DNA from: Octopus vulgaris
Taxonomy: Eukaryota
Direction of reading: 5' to 3'
DNA length: 64,000 nucleotides
Assembly: GCA_951406725.2 (NCBI GenBank)
Contig: OX597815.1
Coordinates: 44,516,001 to 44,580,000 of the forward strand
Made by a program: the position numbers and the translations under genes. The notes under the pieces are model-generated. The model was not told the DNA's origin. It saw only the letters and a list, made by a program, of their open reading frames with translations, and ran no database searches. Of this stretch, positions 27,905-63,120 are shown in pieces. How positions within the stretch are numbered: position 1 is the first letter of the stretch; the number at the start of each line of letters is the position of its first letter.

Positions 27905-28158
27905 GTAATAATAATAAAAATAATAAAAATAGATACAGTTAAGTTATCACCAAGTCCATCCTTCCAAGATCGAAATAACTATGAGTTAAGAAATGCTGAC
28001 CACTAGGTAAAGAAAATTTAGATTTGCCAATCGAATTAATCTAAATTTTCTTTACCTAGTGGTCAGCATTTCTTAACTCATAGTTATTTCGATCTTGGAA
28101 GGATGGACTTGGTGATAACTTAACTGTATCTATTTTTATTATTTTTTATTATTATTAC

Positions 28159-43194: not shown

Positions 43195-43247
43195 ACCTGC
43201 TGACGAGAATTAAGGCACTAACCAGAATTCGAAATAATGATCCAGGT
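43195..43247 (+). ncRNA. Type I hammerhead ribozyme, separate family
   Basis: acctg-CTGACGA-gaatt-(14-nt loop)-aattc-GAAAT-aatg-ATC^caggt; 5-bp stems I and II; starts ~40 bp after a (TA) run. Confidence 0.85.
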
Positions 43248-54006: not shown

Positions 54007-54409
54007 TTCTCAAGTGAGAAACAAGTGGTTTGGAGACCACGGTGTCTACATTTTCAAAGCGAAATTAAATGTCTTTAGTAAAAGCACATGCTTTTATATT
54101 TACCTTATAATCTAGTTTACGCATCTCACACTGTGAAATGGTTTCTTGATTTGGGAGAGGTGATCATATCGAATAAATGTGGTAGTATCGTAATTGCGTT
54201 TCCTGTACCATTGCACTGCAATGCCCAGATCCGAAATATAGCAATATTTTGCTTTGAAAGGAGATAGAGAGACAGACAGACAGACAGACAAACAGAGAGA
54301 GAAGTAGAGAGAGAAGAGAGATTGATCAGCAGAAACGAATGCGGTGGCGATAAGAGGGATATAGGAAACACTGTTATGTTAAACGGCTTAATGCTTAATT
54401 TCAAGAGAT

Positions 54410-54451
<42 letters not shown>

Positions 54452-55494
54452 CAGACAGACAGATTTCTTACTGGAAGGAACGTGTACCGATAAGAGCCAA
54501 GAATAGGGAACACCACAAACATATAACCATACGTACACACATATTTCGTACGAGAAAAGCAGTAGCAATGAAACTGGGGGTATCATAGGTAGGGAGATTT
54601 GTTAATATTGATGGAAATGACGTAAAGTGTTTTGTTTTATCATTAAATTGTTTTGAAGTCATTGAAGGCGCCGAGCTGGCAGAGTCGTTAGCACGCCGGG
54701 CGAAATGATTAGCAGCATTTCGTCAGCCGCTACGTTTTGAGTTCAAATTCCGCCGAGGCCAACTTTGCCTTTCATCCTTTTGGGGTCGATAAAACAAGTA
54801 CCAGTGAAACACTGGGGTCGATGTAATCGACTATTCCCCTCCCCTAAATTTCAGGCCTTATACCTTTTGTAGAAAGGATTATTAAATTGCTTTCAAAAAT
54901 AACCAATCACTCAGGAAATCCCTTTTAGTGAAATGAATTGCCGTCAGCTAAATCGAACCTTTTACATCTAGACACCTTTCTATGAATATAACGCTCTATT
55001 TGTGAATCGAAATCGAATATTATTCATAAGATAATTGACTAGTAAGCCACAGAAGGAAATCGGAGATACAATGTAGTAGGAATGCAACATGTATATGTGT
55101 TTCGAATTTTTGTACAAAGTCCAGTAACTTCGGGGAAAACGTAAGTTGATTACATCGACCCCAGTGCTCAACTGGCATTTATTATGAAAGACAAAGTCGA
55201 CTCCGGCGGTATTTGAATTCAGAACGTAAAGTTGAAAAAAACGTCGCTAAGTAATTTGTCTGACGCGGTAGTAATTCTGCCAGCTCATAATATTTATATT
55301 ATTCGTAAGACCCTTTAACTAGCTTCAGCTTGAAAGTTGCGGTCATGCTGGGGTTTCTCAAGTGAGAAACATGTGGTTTGAGACCACGGCGTCTATATTT
55401 TCAAAGCGAAATTAAATATGTCTTCAGTAAAAGCACATGCTCTTATATTTACCTTATAATCTAATTTACGCATTTCACACTGTGAAATGGTTTC
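54007..55494. repeat. Pair of ~140-bp direct repeats (54007-54145, 55355-55494)
   Basis: ttctcaagtgagaaac...cacactgtgaaatggtttc present twice with scattered substitutions. Confidence 0.9.
54667..54882 (+). mobile_element. SINE family A (alternative tail)
   Basis: Full head and central domain; an opposite-strand decayed copy lies at about 55100-55286. Confidence 0.9.
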
Positions 55495-55707: not shown

Positions 55708-55771
<64 letters not shown>

Positions 55772-55780
<9 letters not shown>

Positions 55781-56182
55781 TCTAAGTCTCTCTAAAGGAG
55801 ACTACGGCAGATATTAACAGTTATCGCCAAGCTAATATGGCAGTCCATAAATATGGGACTAAAGCTGCCGTTGATTAACTCCAAGAGGCCATTTCCTCTG
55901 GCTAGCTATATGACACACGAAACTGTGTCCATTATAACCTTTGAACAGGGGAGACCAGCCGCTTCCCCTTGCTGGTCAGGCATCTGCAAACATGTTTCAG
56001 GGTATTCGCCCTTTATCAATGCAGAGTAGCCAAATCCAGCAGGCGTCAATGTTGACCGTCTGTTCGAAGGATTATTTACCTAATTTCAGTGGAATACATC
56101 CACCGGTTTTCAAAAATAGAAATATTATTATTTCTAAGTCTCTCTAAAGGAGACTACGACAGCGGTACTGGATATTAACAGT
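55772..56182 (-). mobile_element. Retrozyme-like element: 352-bp unit with terminal direct repeat and HHR
   Basis: attattatttctaagtctctctaaaggagactacg...gatattaacagt at 55772-55821 and again at 56124-56182; lies between (ATT)n and (TA)n; no credible ORF. Confidence 0.75.
55984..56024 (-). ncRNA. Type I hammerhead ribozyme, U3-A8 covariant core
   Basis: Minus: ctgca-TTGATAA-aggg-cgaata-ccct-GAAAC-at-GTT^tgcag; stem III palindrome ACATGT. Confidence 0.82.
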
Positions 56183-56198
56183 AATATATATATATATA

Positions 56199-56621
56199 AT
56201 TTAGATTCAAATGAATATGGTACTTAAGTTGAGGCACCAGAATTTAGTATGGTATTATCAATACAATTTCAAAATAAGGCGATTAAAATGAAAATAAGCT
56301 ACAAGGATATCCAGAAGTAATGGAGTACGATCGTTTCATGCGACTCGATTTAATTAAACAATGCAATCATTTCATTGCAACAACATTGATGTTGTTGGTA
56401 AAACATGTTCTTTGTCTATCTCCTTATCCTCTTGAAGATTTTGGATAAAATTATACTAATGTGTCCTTCTAATTTAATTAAATTCTATGTCTTTGTGCAG
56501 CTGAAGATTGCTCTACATTTTAAATTGATGTAATGAAATGATTGCATTGTTCAATTAAATGGAGTCGCAAGAAACGATCGTACTGCATTACCTCTGAATA
56601 TTCTTGTTGCTTATTCTGATT
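56199..56621. mobile_element. Fold-back HHR element in (TA)n (family of 3579-3978)
   Basis: About 56290-56378 is a diverged reverse complement of 56529-56620; (TA)n on both sides. Confidence 0.78.
56496..56587 (+). ncRNA. Type I hammerhead ribozyme
   Basis: tgcag-CTGAAGA-ttgc...gcaa-GAAAC-gatc-GTA^ctgca. Confidence 0.85.
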
Positions 56622-56774
56622 ATATATATATATATATATATATGACGGTCTTCTTTAATTTTCCGTCTACGAAATCCACTCACTAAGCTTTGGTTTACTT
56701 GTCCTGTTTTCCGCTTTTTTATCGTTGTTTACGTATTTAACTCGTGTGTATGTGTATGTATGTATGAATGTATG

Positions 56775-56823
<49 letters not shown>

Positions 56824-56825
56824 AT

Positions 56826-56901
<76 letters not shown>

Positions 56902-57317
56902 ACCACAAAGACATCTATCTCTACACATCACTCGACTTTCTTATTACCTCTTTATCAAAAAATAAAATTAAAAAAACGTCAGAAATCAACACATGAAACA
57001 CGATCTACATTTCCACCTTGTTCTTAAAATGAGAGCGGGTTGTCAAGAGGTATTATGAGAAAGTGAATGGGTCATTAAGTCAGTCACGGTCTTCTTCGTT
57101 TATTCAGTTAGTATTGGTAATTTACGTGCTAGTGGCGGTGTTAGTGGTTGTGGTGGTTGCAGTGATGGTGTTGGTGGGGAGGGGGGTTGTGCCAGTGCTG
57201 GTGGTGGGGAAGACCAGGACAATGCCACAATAAACAATAGGTTCTCTCACAATATCGACTGTGTAGTTATTCGAAAATTGTGTGTGTGTATATGCGTGTG
57301 TATATGGGTGCACATAT

Positions 57318-57530
57318 GCGTATATGTGGTAAGTAGCTTGTTTACCAATCATATGGTTCTGGGTTCTGTCCTACTGCGTAGCACCTTGGGCAAGTGTCTC
57401 CTACTATAGCCTCGGGCCGACGAAAGGCTTGTGAGTGAATTTGGTAGACGGAAATTGAAAGAAGCCTGTCCTATATATGTATATATATATGTGTATGTGT
57501 GTGTGCATATTTGTGTGTCTGTGTTTGTCG
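57318..57530 (+). mobile_element. SINE family B 5' half
   Basis: Matches 59671-59880. Confidence 0.85.
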
Positions 57531-58559
57531 TTGAGTAAATTGTCATTTATTTGATATATATATATATATTTATTTATTTATTTATTTATCTATCATAACA
57601 AACCTATCGGAAAATCGTTCTTATACATTATGATGTCATTTTTATTCTGTATCAGATAAAACAAGTTCTGTGTTGAGTATTTGTTTATAATTATGTTGAT
57701 GCCTATTTTTATCATTTTCACCGAGAAATAAGTCCTGAAGTTTATAGTCTACATTTTATAAAATATTTATCGTTGAGTTTCTCTTGGGTTTACAAAAATA
57801 GTTTTATTTTAGCATTTTTTAAAGGACATTAGCCAAGTCATAGTTCGCGCGACGAAAATTTTGACACTAAATTACAAATAATGAATGTTTAAGTCAAGTT
57901 AACAGTCTTTGTGAGTTTTTGACAGGGTAATATGTGCCATTCACGTTGCAATCTTTAAAAAAGTCTTTTTTCGACAATCCTATTGCAGTAATTCCAATTT
58001 CCCCCACTCTACTCTGTCTTACCCTTTCTCTCCCTCTCTCTCCCCTTTCTCTCCTCCTCTTTCTCGTTGTTGTCTGCAGTTTCAATAAAAGTGTATTTGT
58101 GTCGGATTTGCAAATGAAAATACTTTATTTTACTAGTCCAGAACGCGTATATAGAATTTATTCTAAATTTGTAACACAATTCTTTATTACCTTCATTAAT
58201 TTTTTTCTAAAGGGATAAAATAGTGCTTCTATGAGATTCTCTAGCAGATACATGTTCATCGAATCGAGGGAAAGAGAAAGGAAGTGTAGAAAAATCAAAA
58301 TAAAATAATACTTTCATAAGTACTGCGTCAACTGGACAGAGGGTATTTTCACAGGAAGAGGGAGTACTGCAACCCCGATATTTTCACGATCTGTCCACTT
58401 AAAATGTTATCCCACAAGAGCAGCTGATCCACGAAATTACACATAGCGGACATGACTGTGGCGAGTATTCACTAAAATAACAGGCTTATAAATGAAAAGT
58501 TTATTTGATTTGTAGAGCGTTAATAAAATAATTTTACGTATATCATCATGGATGCATCT

Positions 58560-58960
58560 CAATGTATCACTAGTGATATTTCCAGGGGTCACTAGGCTAT
58601 TTCACTGTCAGACACCCTCATCCAGATGACCTGAGATTGGTGAAGCCACAGCTTGTATCCATTTAGCATTATCTTTGGTAGTACTGTTTCTTCTGGGGCT
58701 CGTACCTTCTGATCCACAGTCTCTTTGAAGCAACCCTTGCTGTTTCCACAGCCAAAGTTGATGGCCTTCCGCCTACTGGCCCCATGTCATGCCAAGCATG
58801 CTGCAGTTCTATAGCGCGACTGGCCTACAAACCCTCGACATCACGTTGCTTGCCATCCCATTTAACAAATTTCTCTCGTGCATGTTTTTTTTGTCCTTAG
58901 TAACTAACTTATCTGAACCCATAACATGGTGCTTCAATTTTACTAGCTCCATGGCACTTC
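58560..58960 (-). mobile_element. HERO-like (RLE non-LTR) 3' fragment
   Basis: Frameshifted minus translation GWQA..CRGFVGQS..MLGMTWASRRKAI..AVETARVASKRLWIRR, resembling HERO C-termini; 3'UTR gggtgtctga...gacccctgg. Confidence 0.65.
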
Positions 58961-59670
58961 CACATAGTTCTCCACATCTAAATGTATATATAAATACAAG
59001 GTTAGCCATACAAAAGAAGGAAAGAGGGGAGAGGGGGAGAAATAAAAAGAACAACTATTTCTATTTAGTCAAAAGCCTCGCACGAGATCACACGCTCATT
59101 AGATCGGAGATTATCCAGGTTTCTATGGCGTTTATTCGTCTGAGTTTGCAATACTCCTGCTTTTACTGTTATACATTTTCAATAGAATAGACTAGAGGAA
59201 TGTAAAATGAAATGGTTCCTTGCATCGGAACTGAAACCAAGATCTTATGAATGTGAGTTCAGTACCCTAACGTCTTGGCCACGTGCCTTCCACAAGACTG
59301 CTCCAATTATAGTTTTTACTCCTCAAGGTTGCTTAAATTATACTTGTCTCTCCTCAGAGCAACTTAAATCATACTTTTCACTATAACATAGAGGAAATGT
59401 CTAAAATCATCGTAACATACATAGATATGTTTCATTAAACATTAGAGTAACGAAACGAAACACACCAGTAATTTAATTTTCTATATAAGGTGTTTCAACA
59501 ATTCGTTTCATAATAGGTGGCTTTTATTATATGATTCTGATTAAGATAGCTTAAATTATATATCATTATCTTTATCTGACATATCGTCGAAAAGTCTGAG
59601 GTTGCAGTGTTGTTTTTAGAAAAGACTCCTTCATACATGCAATGTGTGAAAAAAAAAAAAAAACAATATA

Positions 59671-60068
59671 CGCAGGAGTGGCTGTGTGGTAAGTAGCTTG
59701 CTAACCAACCACATGGTTCCGGGTTCAGTCCCACTGCGTGGCATCTTGGGCAAGTGTCTTCTGATATAGCCCCGGGCCGACCAATTCCTTGTGAGTGGAT
59801 TTGGTAGACGGAAACTGAAAGAAGCCTGTCTTATATAGATATATATGTATGTATGTGTGTTTGTGTGTCTGTGTTTGTCCCCCTAGCATTGCTTGACAAC
59901 CGATGCTGGTGTGTTTATGTCCCCGTCACTTAGCGGTTCGGCAAAAGAGACCGATAGAATAAGTACTGGCTTACAAAGAATAAGTCCCGGGGTCGATTTG
60001 CTCGACTAAAGGTGGTGCTCCAGCATGGCCGCAGTCAAATGACTGAAACAAGTAAAAGAGTAAAGAGT
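59671..60068 (+). mobile_element. SINE family B (tRNA head, CORE-like cttgggcaagtg domain, internal microsatellite, gtaaaaga tail)
   Basis: A box tggctgtgtggtaag, B box gggttcagtccc; about 14 copies or fragments in the window. Confidence 0.92.
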
Positions 60069-62132
60069 ATACTGCAAATCTAGATGAAATGAAATTAAAC
60101 GAAATAACGACTACGGGAGTGAAATCTGCACATTTCACCGTTTTTGCCGCTTGCCAGTGCCACGCATTCTGCTCCCCTCCGTCGAAAAGTTGCTTCGATC
60201 AGTCTGAAGTATGTAGAAGAAGTGAATAAACAATCTACATTCCTAAATAAAATCCAAACATGTAACAGGAGCTACTCTAGATTAAAATATTTATCTATAA
60301 GACATACTTAACTTATGTATATTGTTGAAAATTTGAAACTGCAGTATTACTCACGAAAGAAATCCCTTTATCGACGAAGTGTATTAAAAATACAACGTAT
60401 TTGATAAGCGTCAAATATACTGACGCATGTCACTCGCGCAGTCACTTCCGAAACGATTTCGTTTCGTCTAGTCCTGAAGTATATTTGTTTTTAACACACT
60501 TCGTGAATAAAATGTTAAGGTGTTTTTTTTTTCCGAGACTTTTCACTGATATACATAGGCTGAGTATGTCATATAGATACTGATTTTAATCGGAATCTGT
60601 TTCAATTACATAACTTGAATATTTCATTATATTTAAACAGCCCATGTTTTGTATATTTTTCGTTGTTTTCACAGCTACGTCTATCTTTAGATATAGTGCT
60701 TATGTGACTATGATGGTGCACATACCCCACCAGTGACTGGCATTAGTTAAAATATGTAGTTTTCTAGTTGTGCTTTAAATAGAAACAACCAAAGGAAGAA
60801 TTCTAAAGAGAAATAAGAACCATATACATCATATATAATGTATTTGTGAGTTATTAGTTTTCAAGTCTTGCTTTAAATGTAGGCAAATCGAGAAAGAGTT
60901 AATACTGTGTAGTTTAGTGAAGGGAAAGTGGATGACACTTGAGATAACGCTGTCACTAATTTTCTGATTTAAAATCATTATCTGTCCAAGCTCAACTTCT
61001 TTTCAATAGCTCTCTCCCACTACCACCAACAGCTATTCTTCTCCAACACTTTTTTTTTATCTCCTTCTCCAATTTTATCACTGCATTCTAAAGATGAATG
61101 TTGTTGTTTTTTTTATTTTTCATTTATTTATTTATTGCTGAATATTTTTTAAAAGCCAATCCTAGTTTTGTATACTTATACTTAAATATGAATGTTTGTG
61201 TGTGTTTCACTGAAATGTTTTATAGGTCTAGCATACCAAACACCACGACAAAATGTAAGCAAATACACTACCTATCTTGTGTACAACGCTATGTATACGT
61301 ATATACAACCATATAGTCACATACATATATATATGCGCACGCACATCTCTCTCTATATACTCATATGTTTGTATATGTGTAGGTGTATATATGTATGCAA
61401 GGCTATAGGTGTGAGATGCTGTTGCATGGAGGTAGCGTATCCAAAGGCTGGTGTGAATGTATATGTATATACATATGTATATATACACGTACATATGTAT
61501 TTGTATATACATATGCATGTGTGTGTAAGTATATGTAAGCATATATCATATGAACAATGTGGAGAACAGAAAACGTTAAATGAACGTTGCAGCAAGAATC
61601 GCACCGCGAGTTCCGCTCACAATTGTTAAGTGAAGATCATTGTTACCCACTGTATCGTAAATGAAGTCATAATGAAGGAGGCTTTGCTGGTAATGTGCGA
61701 GTTGGGAACATGGATATCAAGATGGATAATCGATACATAGCTTCCTACAATGCTTGGTTACTTAAAAATACGAAGCACACATCAATAACGAATGGGGACC
61801 ATCTATCGAGGCCGTCATAGATCTTTATAAATACATATTCAAACATGCAGACCATTGTATCATCTCACCAGAAAGAAAACAAGAAGGGATTCATCTTAAT
61901 ATCAATGAAGCAAATCAGCAACTTGAGTTCATAAACTATCATGTCTAGAATAGGTACGGGGGCGGAAATTGGGAAGCGGTGGGGTTTAGATCCATCGACC
62001 TCGTTGCTCAACTGATTTTTACTTTTTCAACCCCGAAAAAAAAAATAAAAGGCAAAGTCGACCTCGGCAGAATTTTAGATCAGGACGTAAAAGGGGAGAA
62101 AATGTGGCTAAGCATTAACTTAGCAGAAATAT

Positions 62133-62404
62133 GGTGGCGAGCTGGCAGAAACATTAGGACGCCGGATGAAATGCTTAACAGTATTTCGTCTGCCGTTACG
62201 TTCCGGGTTCAAATTCCGCCGAGGTCGGCTTTGCCTTTCATTCTTTCGGGGTAGATTAAATAAGTACCAGTTACGCACTGGGGTCGATATAATCGACTTA
62301 ATCCGTTTGTCTGTCCTTGTTTGTCCTCTCTGTGTTTAACCCCTTGTGGGTAGTAAAGAAATAGGTATTTCCTCTGCGTTACATTCTGAGTTCAAATTCC
62401 GCCG
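62133..62404 (+). mobile_element. SINE family A composite (second unit truncated by a Helitron 5' end at ~62408)
   Basis: Same gtaaagaaataggtatttc junction as 33932-33950. Confidence 0.88.
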
Positions 62405-62646
62405 TATATCTCTCTATATAAACGGCAGTTTGTCTGTGCGTGTTTCTGTGTGTCTATTTGCTTGTACCCTCACCCTGACCACGGCTTTCAACCGATTCTG
62501 ATGAAACTATAATATCATAATTCATAACGCAGCGAAAATATATATATAAATTCGACATATCATGTCTATCCATATGTATAACTCTCTAAAAATGCTTTAT
62601 AGTTATATATATATATGTATACATAAATATATATATATATATGTAT

Positions 62647-62723
<77 letters not shown>

Positions 62724-62724
<1 letters not shown>

Positions 62725-63120
62725 TGTTGTGTCTGGGGAGAGTCATTCTCTTTTGGTGCCTTATAATTTAACAAACTCACCGGTAAAATTTCCACTGATT
62801 TCTCTTTTATTTTTCTAAAATTTTCGTTACGTCTTGCAACCTTTTTAATAGTATGCAAGGTATGTAGTGTATTTGCTTACATTTTGTCCTGGTGTTTGGT
62901 ATACAAAACTAGGATTGGCTTTTAATAGTCAAAACTATTGAAAAGGTTGCAAGACGCAACGAAAATTTTAGAAAAATAAAAAAGAAATGTGGAAATTTTA
63001 CCGGTGAGTCTGTTAAATTATAAGGCACCAAAAGAGAATGACTCTCTCCAGACACAACAGAATATGCTTCAACACACGAACTCACATAAAGAATCTTGCA
63101 AGCCAAATCCAGAAACGAAA
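62724..63120. mobile_element. Fold-back element in (TA)n with ~130-bp inverted arms
   Basis: 62724-62852 versus 62934-63060; right arm extends 60 bp to a TA tract. Confidence 0.88.
62935..62971 (+). ncRNA. Candidate minimal hammerhead with U3-A8 core
   Basis: cta-TTGAAAAG-gttgc-aagac-gcaac-GAAAATTT^tag; same spacing as the minimal HHRs at 4936 and 5224. Confidence 0.55.

What the first reader, a model, noticed from the sequence alone, without database searches (positions are those of the whole stretch)
55984..62971. Two unrelated elements carry the compensatory C3-G8 to U3-A8 hammerhead core
Seen: cores TTGATAA (56013-56019, minus) and TTGAAAA (62938-62944) replace CTGANGA, with both positions 3 and 8 changed. 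Established: positions 3 and 8 form a Watson-Crick pair in the active HHR, and U3-A8 is a tolerated rare variant. Inference: the double change signals selection for catalysis, and standard CUGANGA searches would miss these families. The 62935 motif also has an unusual AATT stem III and a UUU cleavage triplet.
Basis: partly seen in the sequence, partly recalled or inferred. Interest (0 to 1): 0.72.

Follow-up and report, generated by a model that had tools for sequence, protein, structure and literature searches.

The report
Variant hammerheads in two octopus-like retroelements
Both motifs belong to large families of jumping elements whose predicted self-cutting RNA has an already published swap of one core base pair, and an older branch of the second family spread with that swap only half made, which likely records how the pair changed.

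Summary

Motif A (56025-55983, minus) is a type I hammerhead in a ~360-nt tandem, retrozyme-like repeat. U3-A8 stands in 99 of 100 listed of 479 matches; C3-G8 had 0 matches.

Motif B (62935-62971) lies in the 3' repeat of a Neptune/Nematis-type Penelope-like element. U3-A8 stands in 90 of 100 listed of 1,687 matches.

Natural U3-A8 is published (PMC3088659; ~1,300 Schistosoma hits, PMC4209133), and this scan noted U3-A8 retrozymes before on other DNA of this genome.

New here: an older sister subfamily of B spread with a U3·G8 wobble (28 of 45 copies picked blind to the ribozyme). That fits a C-G to U·G to U-A path, but it weakens the claim of selection for catalysis. No B copy starts at the cut site (0 of 30), and core conservation between subfamilies is not significant (p=0.27). 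Both window copies are damaged. Cleavage is untested.

The parts
55771..56182 (-). Element A: one copy (about 1.15 units) of a ~360-nt retrozyme-like repeat with terminal direct repeat, ending in (TAA)n
   Evidence: Direct repeat 55771-55810 / 56123-56162, spacing 352; natural trimer period 362; unit fold z -3.98; 7% from its subfamily majority
55983..56025 (-). Hammerhead A, type I: helix I 56025-56020 with 55988-55983, core U3 56019 to A9 56013 (A8 56014), helix II 56012-56009 with 56002-55999, GAAA 55998-55995, CATG palindrome, predicted cut after 55989; this copy has U17
   Evidence: family states
62724..62852 (-). Element B, inverted 5'-truncated arm; its hammerhead copy has lost G5
   Evidence: 94% identity to the right arm
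62925..63060 (+). Element B, forward arm: 3' repeat (pLTR) of a Penelope-like element
   Evidence: Continuous with RT and GIY-YIG fragments in L061 and with a GIY-YIG fragment in L062
62935..62971 (+). Hammerhead B: 3-bp helix I, core U3 62938 to A9 62944 (A8 62943), extra G 62945, helix II 62946-62950 with 62956-62960, GAAA 62961-62964, AATT palindrome, predicted cut after 62968
   Evidence: family states
63061..63119 (+). Optional ~58-nt tail, present on one arm only (Penelope-like signature)
   Evidence: Present or absent at the same boundary across copies; compare PMC11167929

Best explanation
The two motifs are aged copies of predicted hammerhead ribozymes from two unrelated mobile families, a ~360-nt retrozyme-like repeat (A) and the end repeat of a Penelope-like retrotransposon (B), in both of which U3-A8 is the inherited family state, likely reached in B through a U3·G8 wobble stage. 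Shown: family states, element anatomy, the RT-endonuclease link of B, and a G8 subfamily B' that is more diverged than B. Inferred for A: tandem transcripts would pair two ribozymes through the CAUG palindrome, cut to unit length and probably circularise. A Penelope-type enzyme would then copy the circle or multimer from two fixed start points; U3-A8 keeps the core pair, so A is probably active (about 65%). Inferred for B: the enzyme copies uncut RNA from its 3' end or tail and mostly stops just upstream of the ribozyme. Cleavage there is weak, protein-assisted or dispensable, which let a wobble-core subfamily spread before G8 became A. C-to-U and G-to-A are both transitions, and AT-rich DNA would favour them, so reaching U3-A8 twice needs tolerance rather than strong selection.
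For: A: 98 of 100 listed U3-A8 (207 matches); 99 of 100 (479 matches, loop left free); 0 C3-G8; no variant at or above 3% at positions 3 or 8 in contigs of 4 runs from 3 coded organisms, while loop 2 and position 10.1 vary. Arm 3' ends pile at +177-188 (17) and +227-237 (25) from the cut site, 42 of 62. The CAUG-centred self-duplex is -4.6 kcal/mol. B: RT YVDD, DKG-like and CX4CxxC motifs and GIY-YIG (Pfam E 3e-4 and 8e-3, below cut-off) upstream on the same strand; closest protein named RT-domain by its source. Blind samples: B 21 of 23 U3-A8; B' 28 U3·G8, 7 U3-A8, 5 C3-G8, 5 other of 45; divergence 0.063 against 0.103, p=0.007. B 5' ends: 16 of 30 at -14..+3, 0 of 30 at the cut site. Ribozyme mutants did not affect insertion by an Anolis Penelope-like protein in vitro (PMC11167929).
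Against: No cleavage or RNA data. Polarity G8 to A8 rests on relative age only; no C3-G8 ancestor subfamily was found (13 C3-G8 matches, scattered on a low-resolution tree). C3 is enriched in B (8 of 100 against 9 of 553 background T-to-C, p=0.002) and is unexplained. In one deep-mutagenesis hammerhead only the G3-C8 swap rescued activity (PMC9901934 passages), so U3-A8 may be slow. The enzyme that moves A was not identified: no similarity of A to the B element. 5' ends of A do not cluster at the cut site either.
Confidence: 0.75

Rival explanations
1. Both ribozymes are under firm selection to cut; U3·G8 in B' was tolerated but slower, and A8 was a selected compensatory fix.
For: The pair is Watson-Crick in both major families; position 8 is the only non-loop change in the B motif between subfamilies and it restores pairing; in a full-length B copy the hammerhead shape is the minimum-energy fold (L048); covariation is called compensatory in PMC3088659.
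Against: Conservation not significant (p=0.27); B' amplified with the wobble (110 U3-G8 matches, which include B copies with a single change); AATT self-duplex is unstable (+2.2 kcal/mol) and helix I probability is 0.25 at best; 0 of 30 starts at the cut site.
Confidence: 0.3
2. Both cores are dead relics drifting under AT-biased mutation, carried along because copying does not need cleavage.
For: Both changes are transitions toward A/U; no cut-site footprint in either family; low activity of core mutants in PMC9901934.
Against: In A the 17 core positions are unchanged across subfamilies and the 3-8 pair is fixed in three coded organisms; helices I and II form with probability 0.85-1.0; units are tandem and of retrozyme size.
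Confidence: 0.15
3. Motif B is a chance look-alike inside the terminal inverted repeat of a MITE.
For: It lies in a 130-bp inverted pair next to (TA)n and needs an extra base to fit.
Against: Arms have a fixed 3' end, variable 5' ends and a one-sided tail; the same sequence follows GIY-YIG coding remains in two loci; its oddities match described Penelope hammerheads.
Confidence: 0.03
4. The window copies decayed independently from C3-G8 families.
For: Both window copies carry other private changes.
Against: U3-A8 is the majority in both families; 0 and 13 C3-G8 matches.
Confidence: 0.01

Closest known systems
Metazoan non-LTR retrozymes (mussel 350-390 bp; Cervera and de la Pena 2020, PMC7229834, passages read; bioRxiv 10.64898/2026.07.22.740005, abstract, section 5 and part 1 of 2 of section 11 read)
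   Same: Element A: short tandem unit (362 nt) with a type I hammerhead, palindromic helix III, strongly self-paired monomer, co-occurring with Penelope-like elements.
   Different: Core pair is U3-A8; the term U3-A8 does not occur in the main text of PMC7229834 (supplements not read). Circular RNA and cleavage not shown here.
Minimal and variant hammerheads of Penelope-like elements (Cervera and de la Pena 2014, PMC4209133; parts 1-2 of 4 read)
   Same: Element B: extra base between 9 and 10.1, G10.1-C11.1, 2-nt palindromic helix III, very short helix I as in D. virilis Penelope; U3-A8 as in about 1,300 Schistosoma hits; pairs on opposite strands.
   Different: The extra base is G, the triplet is UUU, and a sister subfamily has U3·G8; no wobble-core subfamily is mentioned in the parts read.
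Neptune/Nematis-type endonuclease-bearing Penelope-like elements (PMC8557442, passages; PMC11167929, parts 1-2 of 4)
   Same: RT, CX2-5CxxC linker, C-terminal GIY-YIG, inverted 5'-truncated copies, optional tail, microsatellite targets.
   Different: Only broken frames were seen; the tail is about 58 nt, longer than the 30-40 bp described; clade not tested by a tree.
Natural U3-A8 hammerheads (Perreault et al. 2011, PMC3088659, passages read)
   Same: Same covariation at core positions 3 and 8, stated to be active in vitro.
   Different: Several scattered examples there; here whole high-copy families.

Membership tests
Type I hammerhead ribozyme (motif A) | Helices I and II around the conserved core with a paired 3-8 position | tested here: met
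   U3-A8 is Watson-Crick
Type I hammerhead ribozyme (motif A) | Helix III, or a palindrome allowing a dimer, and an NUH triplet | tested here: met
   CAUG-centred duplex -4.6 kcal/mol; GUC in 47 of 53 copies, window copy GUU
Type I hammerhead ribozyme (motif B) | Stable helix I and helix III or dimer helix | tested here: inconclusive
   Helix I probability 0.25 in L048, 0.03 in L056, 0 in the window copy; AATT duplex +2.2 kcal/mol
Type I hammerhead ribozyme (both) | Site-specific self-cleavage | not testable with these tools
   No raw RNA reads offered
Metazoan non-LTR retrozyme (element A) | Short tandem unit of about 170-400 nt, one hammerhead per unit | tested here: met
   Natural trimer, period 362; terminal repeats spaced 338-362
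Metazoan non-LTR retrozyme (element A) | Highly self-paired monomer | tested here: met
   z -3.98, 0 of 100 shuffles
Metazoan non-LTR retrozyme (element A) | No protein-coding capacity | tested here: inconclusive
   Stop-free stretches of 133-192 codons overlap the unit on the antisense strand in a few loci; not scanned against families; output was cut
Metazoan non-LTR retrozyme (element A) | Expressed as circular RNA | not testable with these tools
   Only contigs of runs guessed to be RNA
Endonuclease-bearing Penelope-like element (element B) | RT followed by C-terminal GIY-YIG upstream of the repeat | tested here: met
   Frame fragments in L061 and L062; Pfam GIY-YIG E 3e-4 and 8e-3, relative P0001 RVT_1 E 4e-3, all below curated cut-offs
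Endonuclease-bearing Penelope-like element (element B) | Fixed 3' end with optional tail, 5' truncation, inverted partner | tested here: met
Neptune/Nematis clades | CX2-5CxxC linker between RT and endonuclease | tested here: met
   CX4CxxC in L061 and P0001; definition from PMC8557442
Neptune/Nematis clades | Placement in the RT phylogeny | not tested
   No reference sequences on hand

The most novel reading that the evidence does not exclude
This Penelope-like lineage preserves a compensatory change in a ribozyme's catalytic core as a dated series: a whole older subfamily multiplied with the half-way U3·G8 wobble and its younger sister with U3-A8. The wobble stage was not purged, so ribozyme cutting is tunable or dispensable for Penelope-type transposition in a living genome, and the natural variants make this directly testable.
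Probability: 0.4. Interest if true: 0.55.

Novelty: new member of a known kind. Interest (0 to 1): 0.32.

Why it matters
The headline variant is known, so the two copies are ordinary. Two points have value. First, hammerhead counts in this genome that require CUGANGA or rely on Rfam miss at least 479 and 1,687 motifs from these two families alone. Second, the role of hammerheads in Penelope-like elements is an open question; an amplified wobble-core subfamily and the lack of copies starting at the cut site are genomic support for the in vitro result that cleavage is not needed, and they supply a natural allelic series (U3-A8, U3·G8, C3-G8, C3-A8) to assay.

Tried and rejected
MITE reading of B: rejected. 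Independent decay: rejected. Covariation of positions 3 and 8 among B-lineage copies: not found; C3 is 13 of 123 on G8 and 8 of 98 on A8, p=0.65. C3 copies as their own clade: not seen, but the tree has little resolution. The idea that inactive variants are enriched because uncut RNA is the template: rejected, since C3 is as frequent where it would restore C3-G8. A-to-I editing as the source of A8: rejected, because the age order points from G to A. Four versions of the pair in family A (lead from e1-8670037): not seen in this family. RNA evidence: no RNA holder listed; only contigs could be laid. An autonomous partner for A: none found in 1.5-kb flanks or by similarity to the B element. Rfam whole-window scan: only low-complexity matches among the 150 of 193 rows shown. 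Look-ups of earlier notes by sequence: nothing. Literature searches: octopus with hammerhead and Penelope gave 1 listed paper; retrozyme with mollusc terms gave no cephalopod retrozyme paper among 20 listed of 1,553; searches for a wobble intermediate or the C3U/G8A double mutant gave 0. The library lacks most subscription papers. Not held, so not seen: Przybilski and Hammann 2007, Nelson and Uhlenbeck 2008, Martick and Scott 2006, Lunse et al. 2017; the last may already cover such variants. No supplements were read.
Full report
Setting. The window lies in a 2.8-Gb, microsatellite-rich animal genome. The nearest relative of a protein encoded by element B is labelled Octopus vulgaris by its source, so I call the genome octopus-like; that is an inference.

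Observation. Both cores are at the stated coordinates. A descriptor with positions 3 and 8 free found three motifs in the window: A (56019, minus), B (62938) and a canonical C3-G8 motif at 43200. Thirty shuffles gave about 0.43 hits per window in all and 0.07 of U3-A8 type. A folds into the hammerhead shape as its minimum-energy structure (z -3.6). B fits only with an extra G before helix II and has a 3-bp helix I (z -1.9). Rfam gave no hammerhead match at either site. A and B share only chance words.

Element A. The motif sits in 55771-56182, bounded by a 40-nt direct repeat spaced 352 nt. A natural trimer has period 362, and the unit folds strongly (z -3.98). With positions 3 and 8 free, an exact pattern gave 207 matches, of which the 100 listed were 98 U3-A8, 1 A3-A8 and 1 U3·G8. 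A looser pattern gave 479 matches, 99 of the 100 listed U3-A8 and 1 C3-A8. The C3-G8 version gave 0. Contigs of four runs from three coded organisms vary at 3% or more only in loop 2 and position 10.1, not at 3 or 8 (contigs drop rare variants). The window copy is old: 7% from its subfamily majority, GUU instead of GUC (1 of 53 kept from 59 motifs), and an altered loop 2. Arm 3' ends pile at two points about 55 nt apart (17 and 25 of 62; arms touching a locus or reference end were dropped), while 5' ends scatter round the unit and many arms exceed one unit. This matches the two reverse-transcription start sites and tail described for a Penelope-like protein (PMC11167929), acting on a circular or multimeric template. 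That step is inferred, and earlier notes of this scan read similar families the same way.

Element B. The motif is in the forward arm of an inverted pair with a one-sided tail. Across copies the 3' end is fixed and the 5' end varies. In L061 the same sequence follows broken frames with a DKG-like motif, YVDD, a CX4CxxC linker and GIY-YIG, and L062 repeats the endonuclease end. Pfam scores are below cut-off. These features define an endonuclease-bearing Penelope-like element of Neptune/Nematis type (PMC8557442). An exact pattern gave 1,687 matches; the 100 listed were 90 U3-A8, 8 C3-A8, 1 G3-A8 and 1 U3·G8. In the window copy a local hairpin at the 5' junction sequesters the core strand (helix I probability 0), whereas a full-length copy has the hammerhead shape as its minimum-energy fold, with helix I probability 0.25.

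The older subfamily. Searching for G8 forms gave 13 C3-G8 and 110 U3·G8 matches. Many carry a distinct set of downstream markers (subfamily B'). I then took all 77 matches to a B' marker outside the ribozyme. In 32 no helix II was found (truncated or decayed); the other 45 were 28 U3·G8, 7 U3-A8, 5 C3-G8 and 5 other. For B, 23 of 30 copies picked by their 3' end held the motif, 21 of them U3-A8. B' copies are more diverged over the motif (0.103 against 0.063, p=0.007). The minority states in B' are at the level of ordinary decay. Position 8 is the only non-loop difference between the two majorities in the motif. If the canonical pair is the deep ancestor and the older subfamily is nearer to it, the path is C3-G8, U3·G8, U3-A8. 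The order rests on age alone; no C3-G8 subfamily was found.

Is catalysis selected? Not shown. Motif conservation between subfamilies is not significant in B (1 of 32 against 8 of 69, p=0.27), and the counts in A are too small and come from a ribozyme-selected sample. Positions 3 and 8 do not covary among B-lineage copies (p=0.65). Of 30 B copies, 16 start within -14..+3 of the core and none at the cut site (ends inside the A-rich tract are poorly resolved), so most templates kept the site intact. Published data point both ways. U3-A8 is called active and natural (PMC3088659). One full pairwise scan rescued only G3-C8 (PMC9901934). Minimal Penelope hammerheads cut poorly even as dimers (PMC4209133), and cleavage mutants did not affect insertion in vitro (PMC11167929). 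A, with firm helices and a stable dimer palindrome, is the better candidate for an active ribozyme; B is doubtful.

Comparison and verdict. A works like a metazoan non-LTR retrozyme and meets the sequence-level tests; circular RNA and cleavage are untested. B is the end repeat of a Penelope-like element with a hammerhead of a described variant type. U3-A8 in such elements was reported in 2014 with about 1,300 hits, and this scan has several notes on U3-A8 retrozymes and one on a U3-A8 Penelope end in this genome. The amplified U3·G8 subfamily was not found in my searches, but key papers were not available. New members of a known kind; interest 0.32.

Noticed in passing
window 43195-43247 (+): A third type I hammerhead with a canonical C3-G8 core, a long imperfect helix II and an AUC triplet, upstream of a (TAA)n tract; probably another Penelope-type end.
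   Followed up: no
family B, position 3 (e.g. L135-L142): C3 occurs in 8 of 100 listed copies, about five times the T-to-C background (9 of 553, p=0.002), without forming a clear clade; unexplained.
   Followed up: partly
family B 5' ends (L175-L204): 16 of 30 copies begin within -14..+3 of the core, often with a fold-back junction; a transcription start or a reverse-transcription stop just upstream of the ribozyme is possible.
   Followed up: partly
L048:1495-1625: A long-range helix joins the sequence just upstream of hammerhead B to the end of the repeat and could extend helix I.
   Followed up: partly
L061 (G000:C5:2053500-2060500): Divergent inverted pair with a ~2.9-kb broken RT-endonuclease body on one arm; the longest B element seen.
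   Followed up: partly
family A loop 2 (L235-L254): Two loop-2 subfamilies share the fixed U3-A8 core; position 10.1 is A or G at about 12-14% of contig depth.
   Followed up: partly
window 27981-28081: Near-perfect ~100-nt hairpin between (TAA)n and (TAT)n tracts; likely another inverted Penelope-type end.
   Followed up: no
window 54007-54145 and 55355-55494: Direct repeats spaced about 1,348 nt, next to element A; nature unknown.
   Followed up: no
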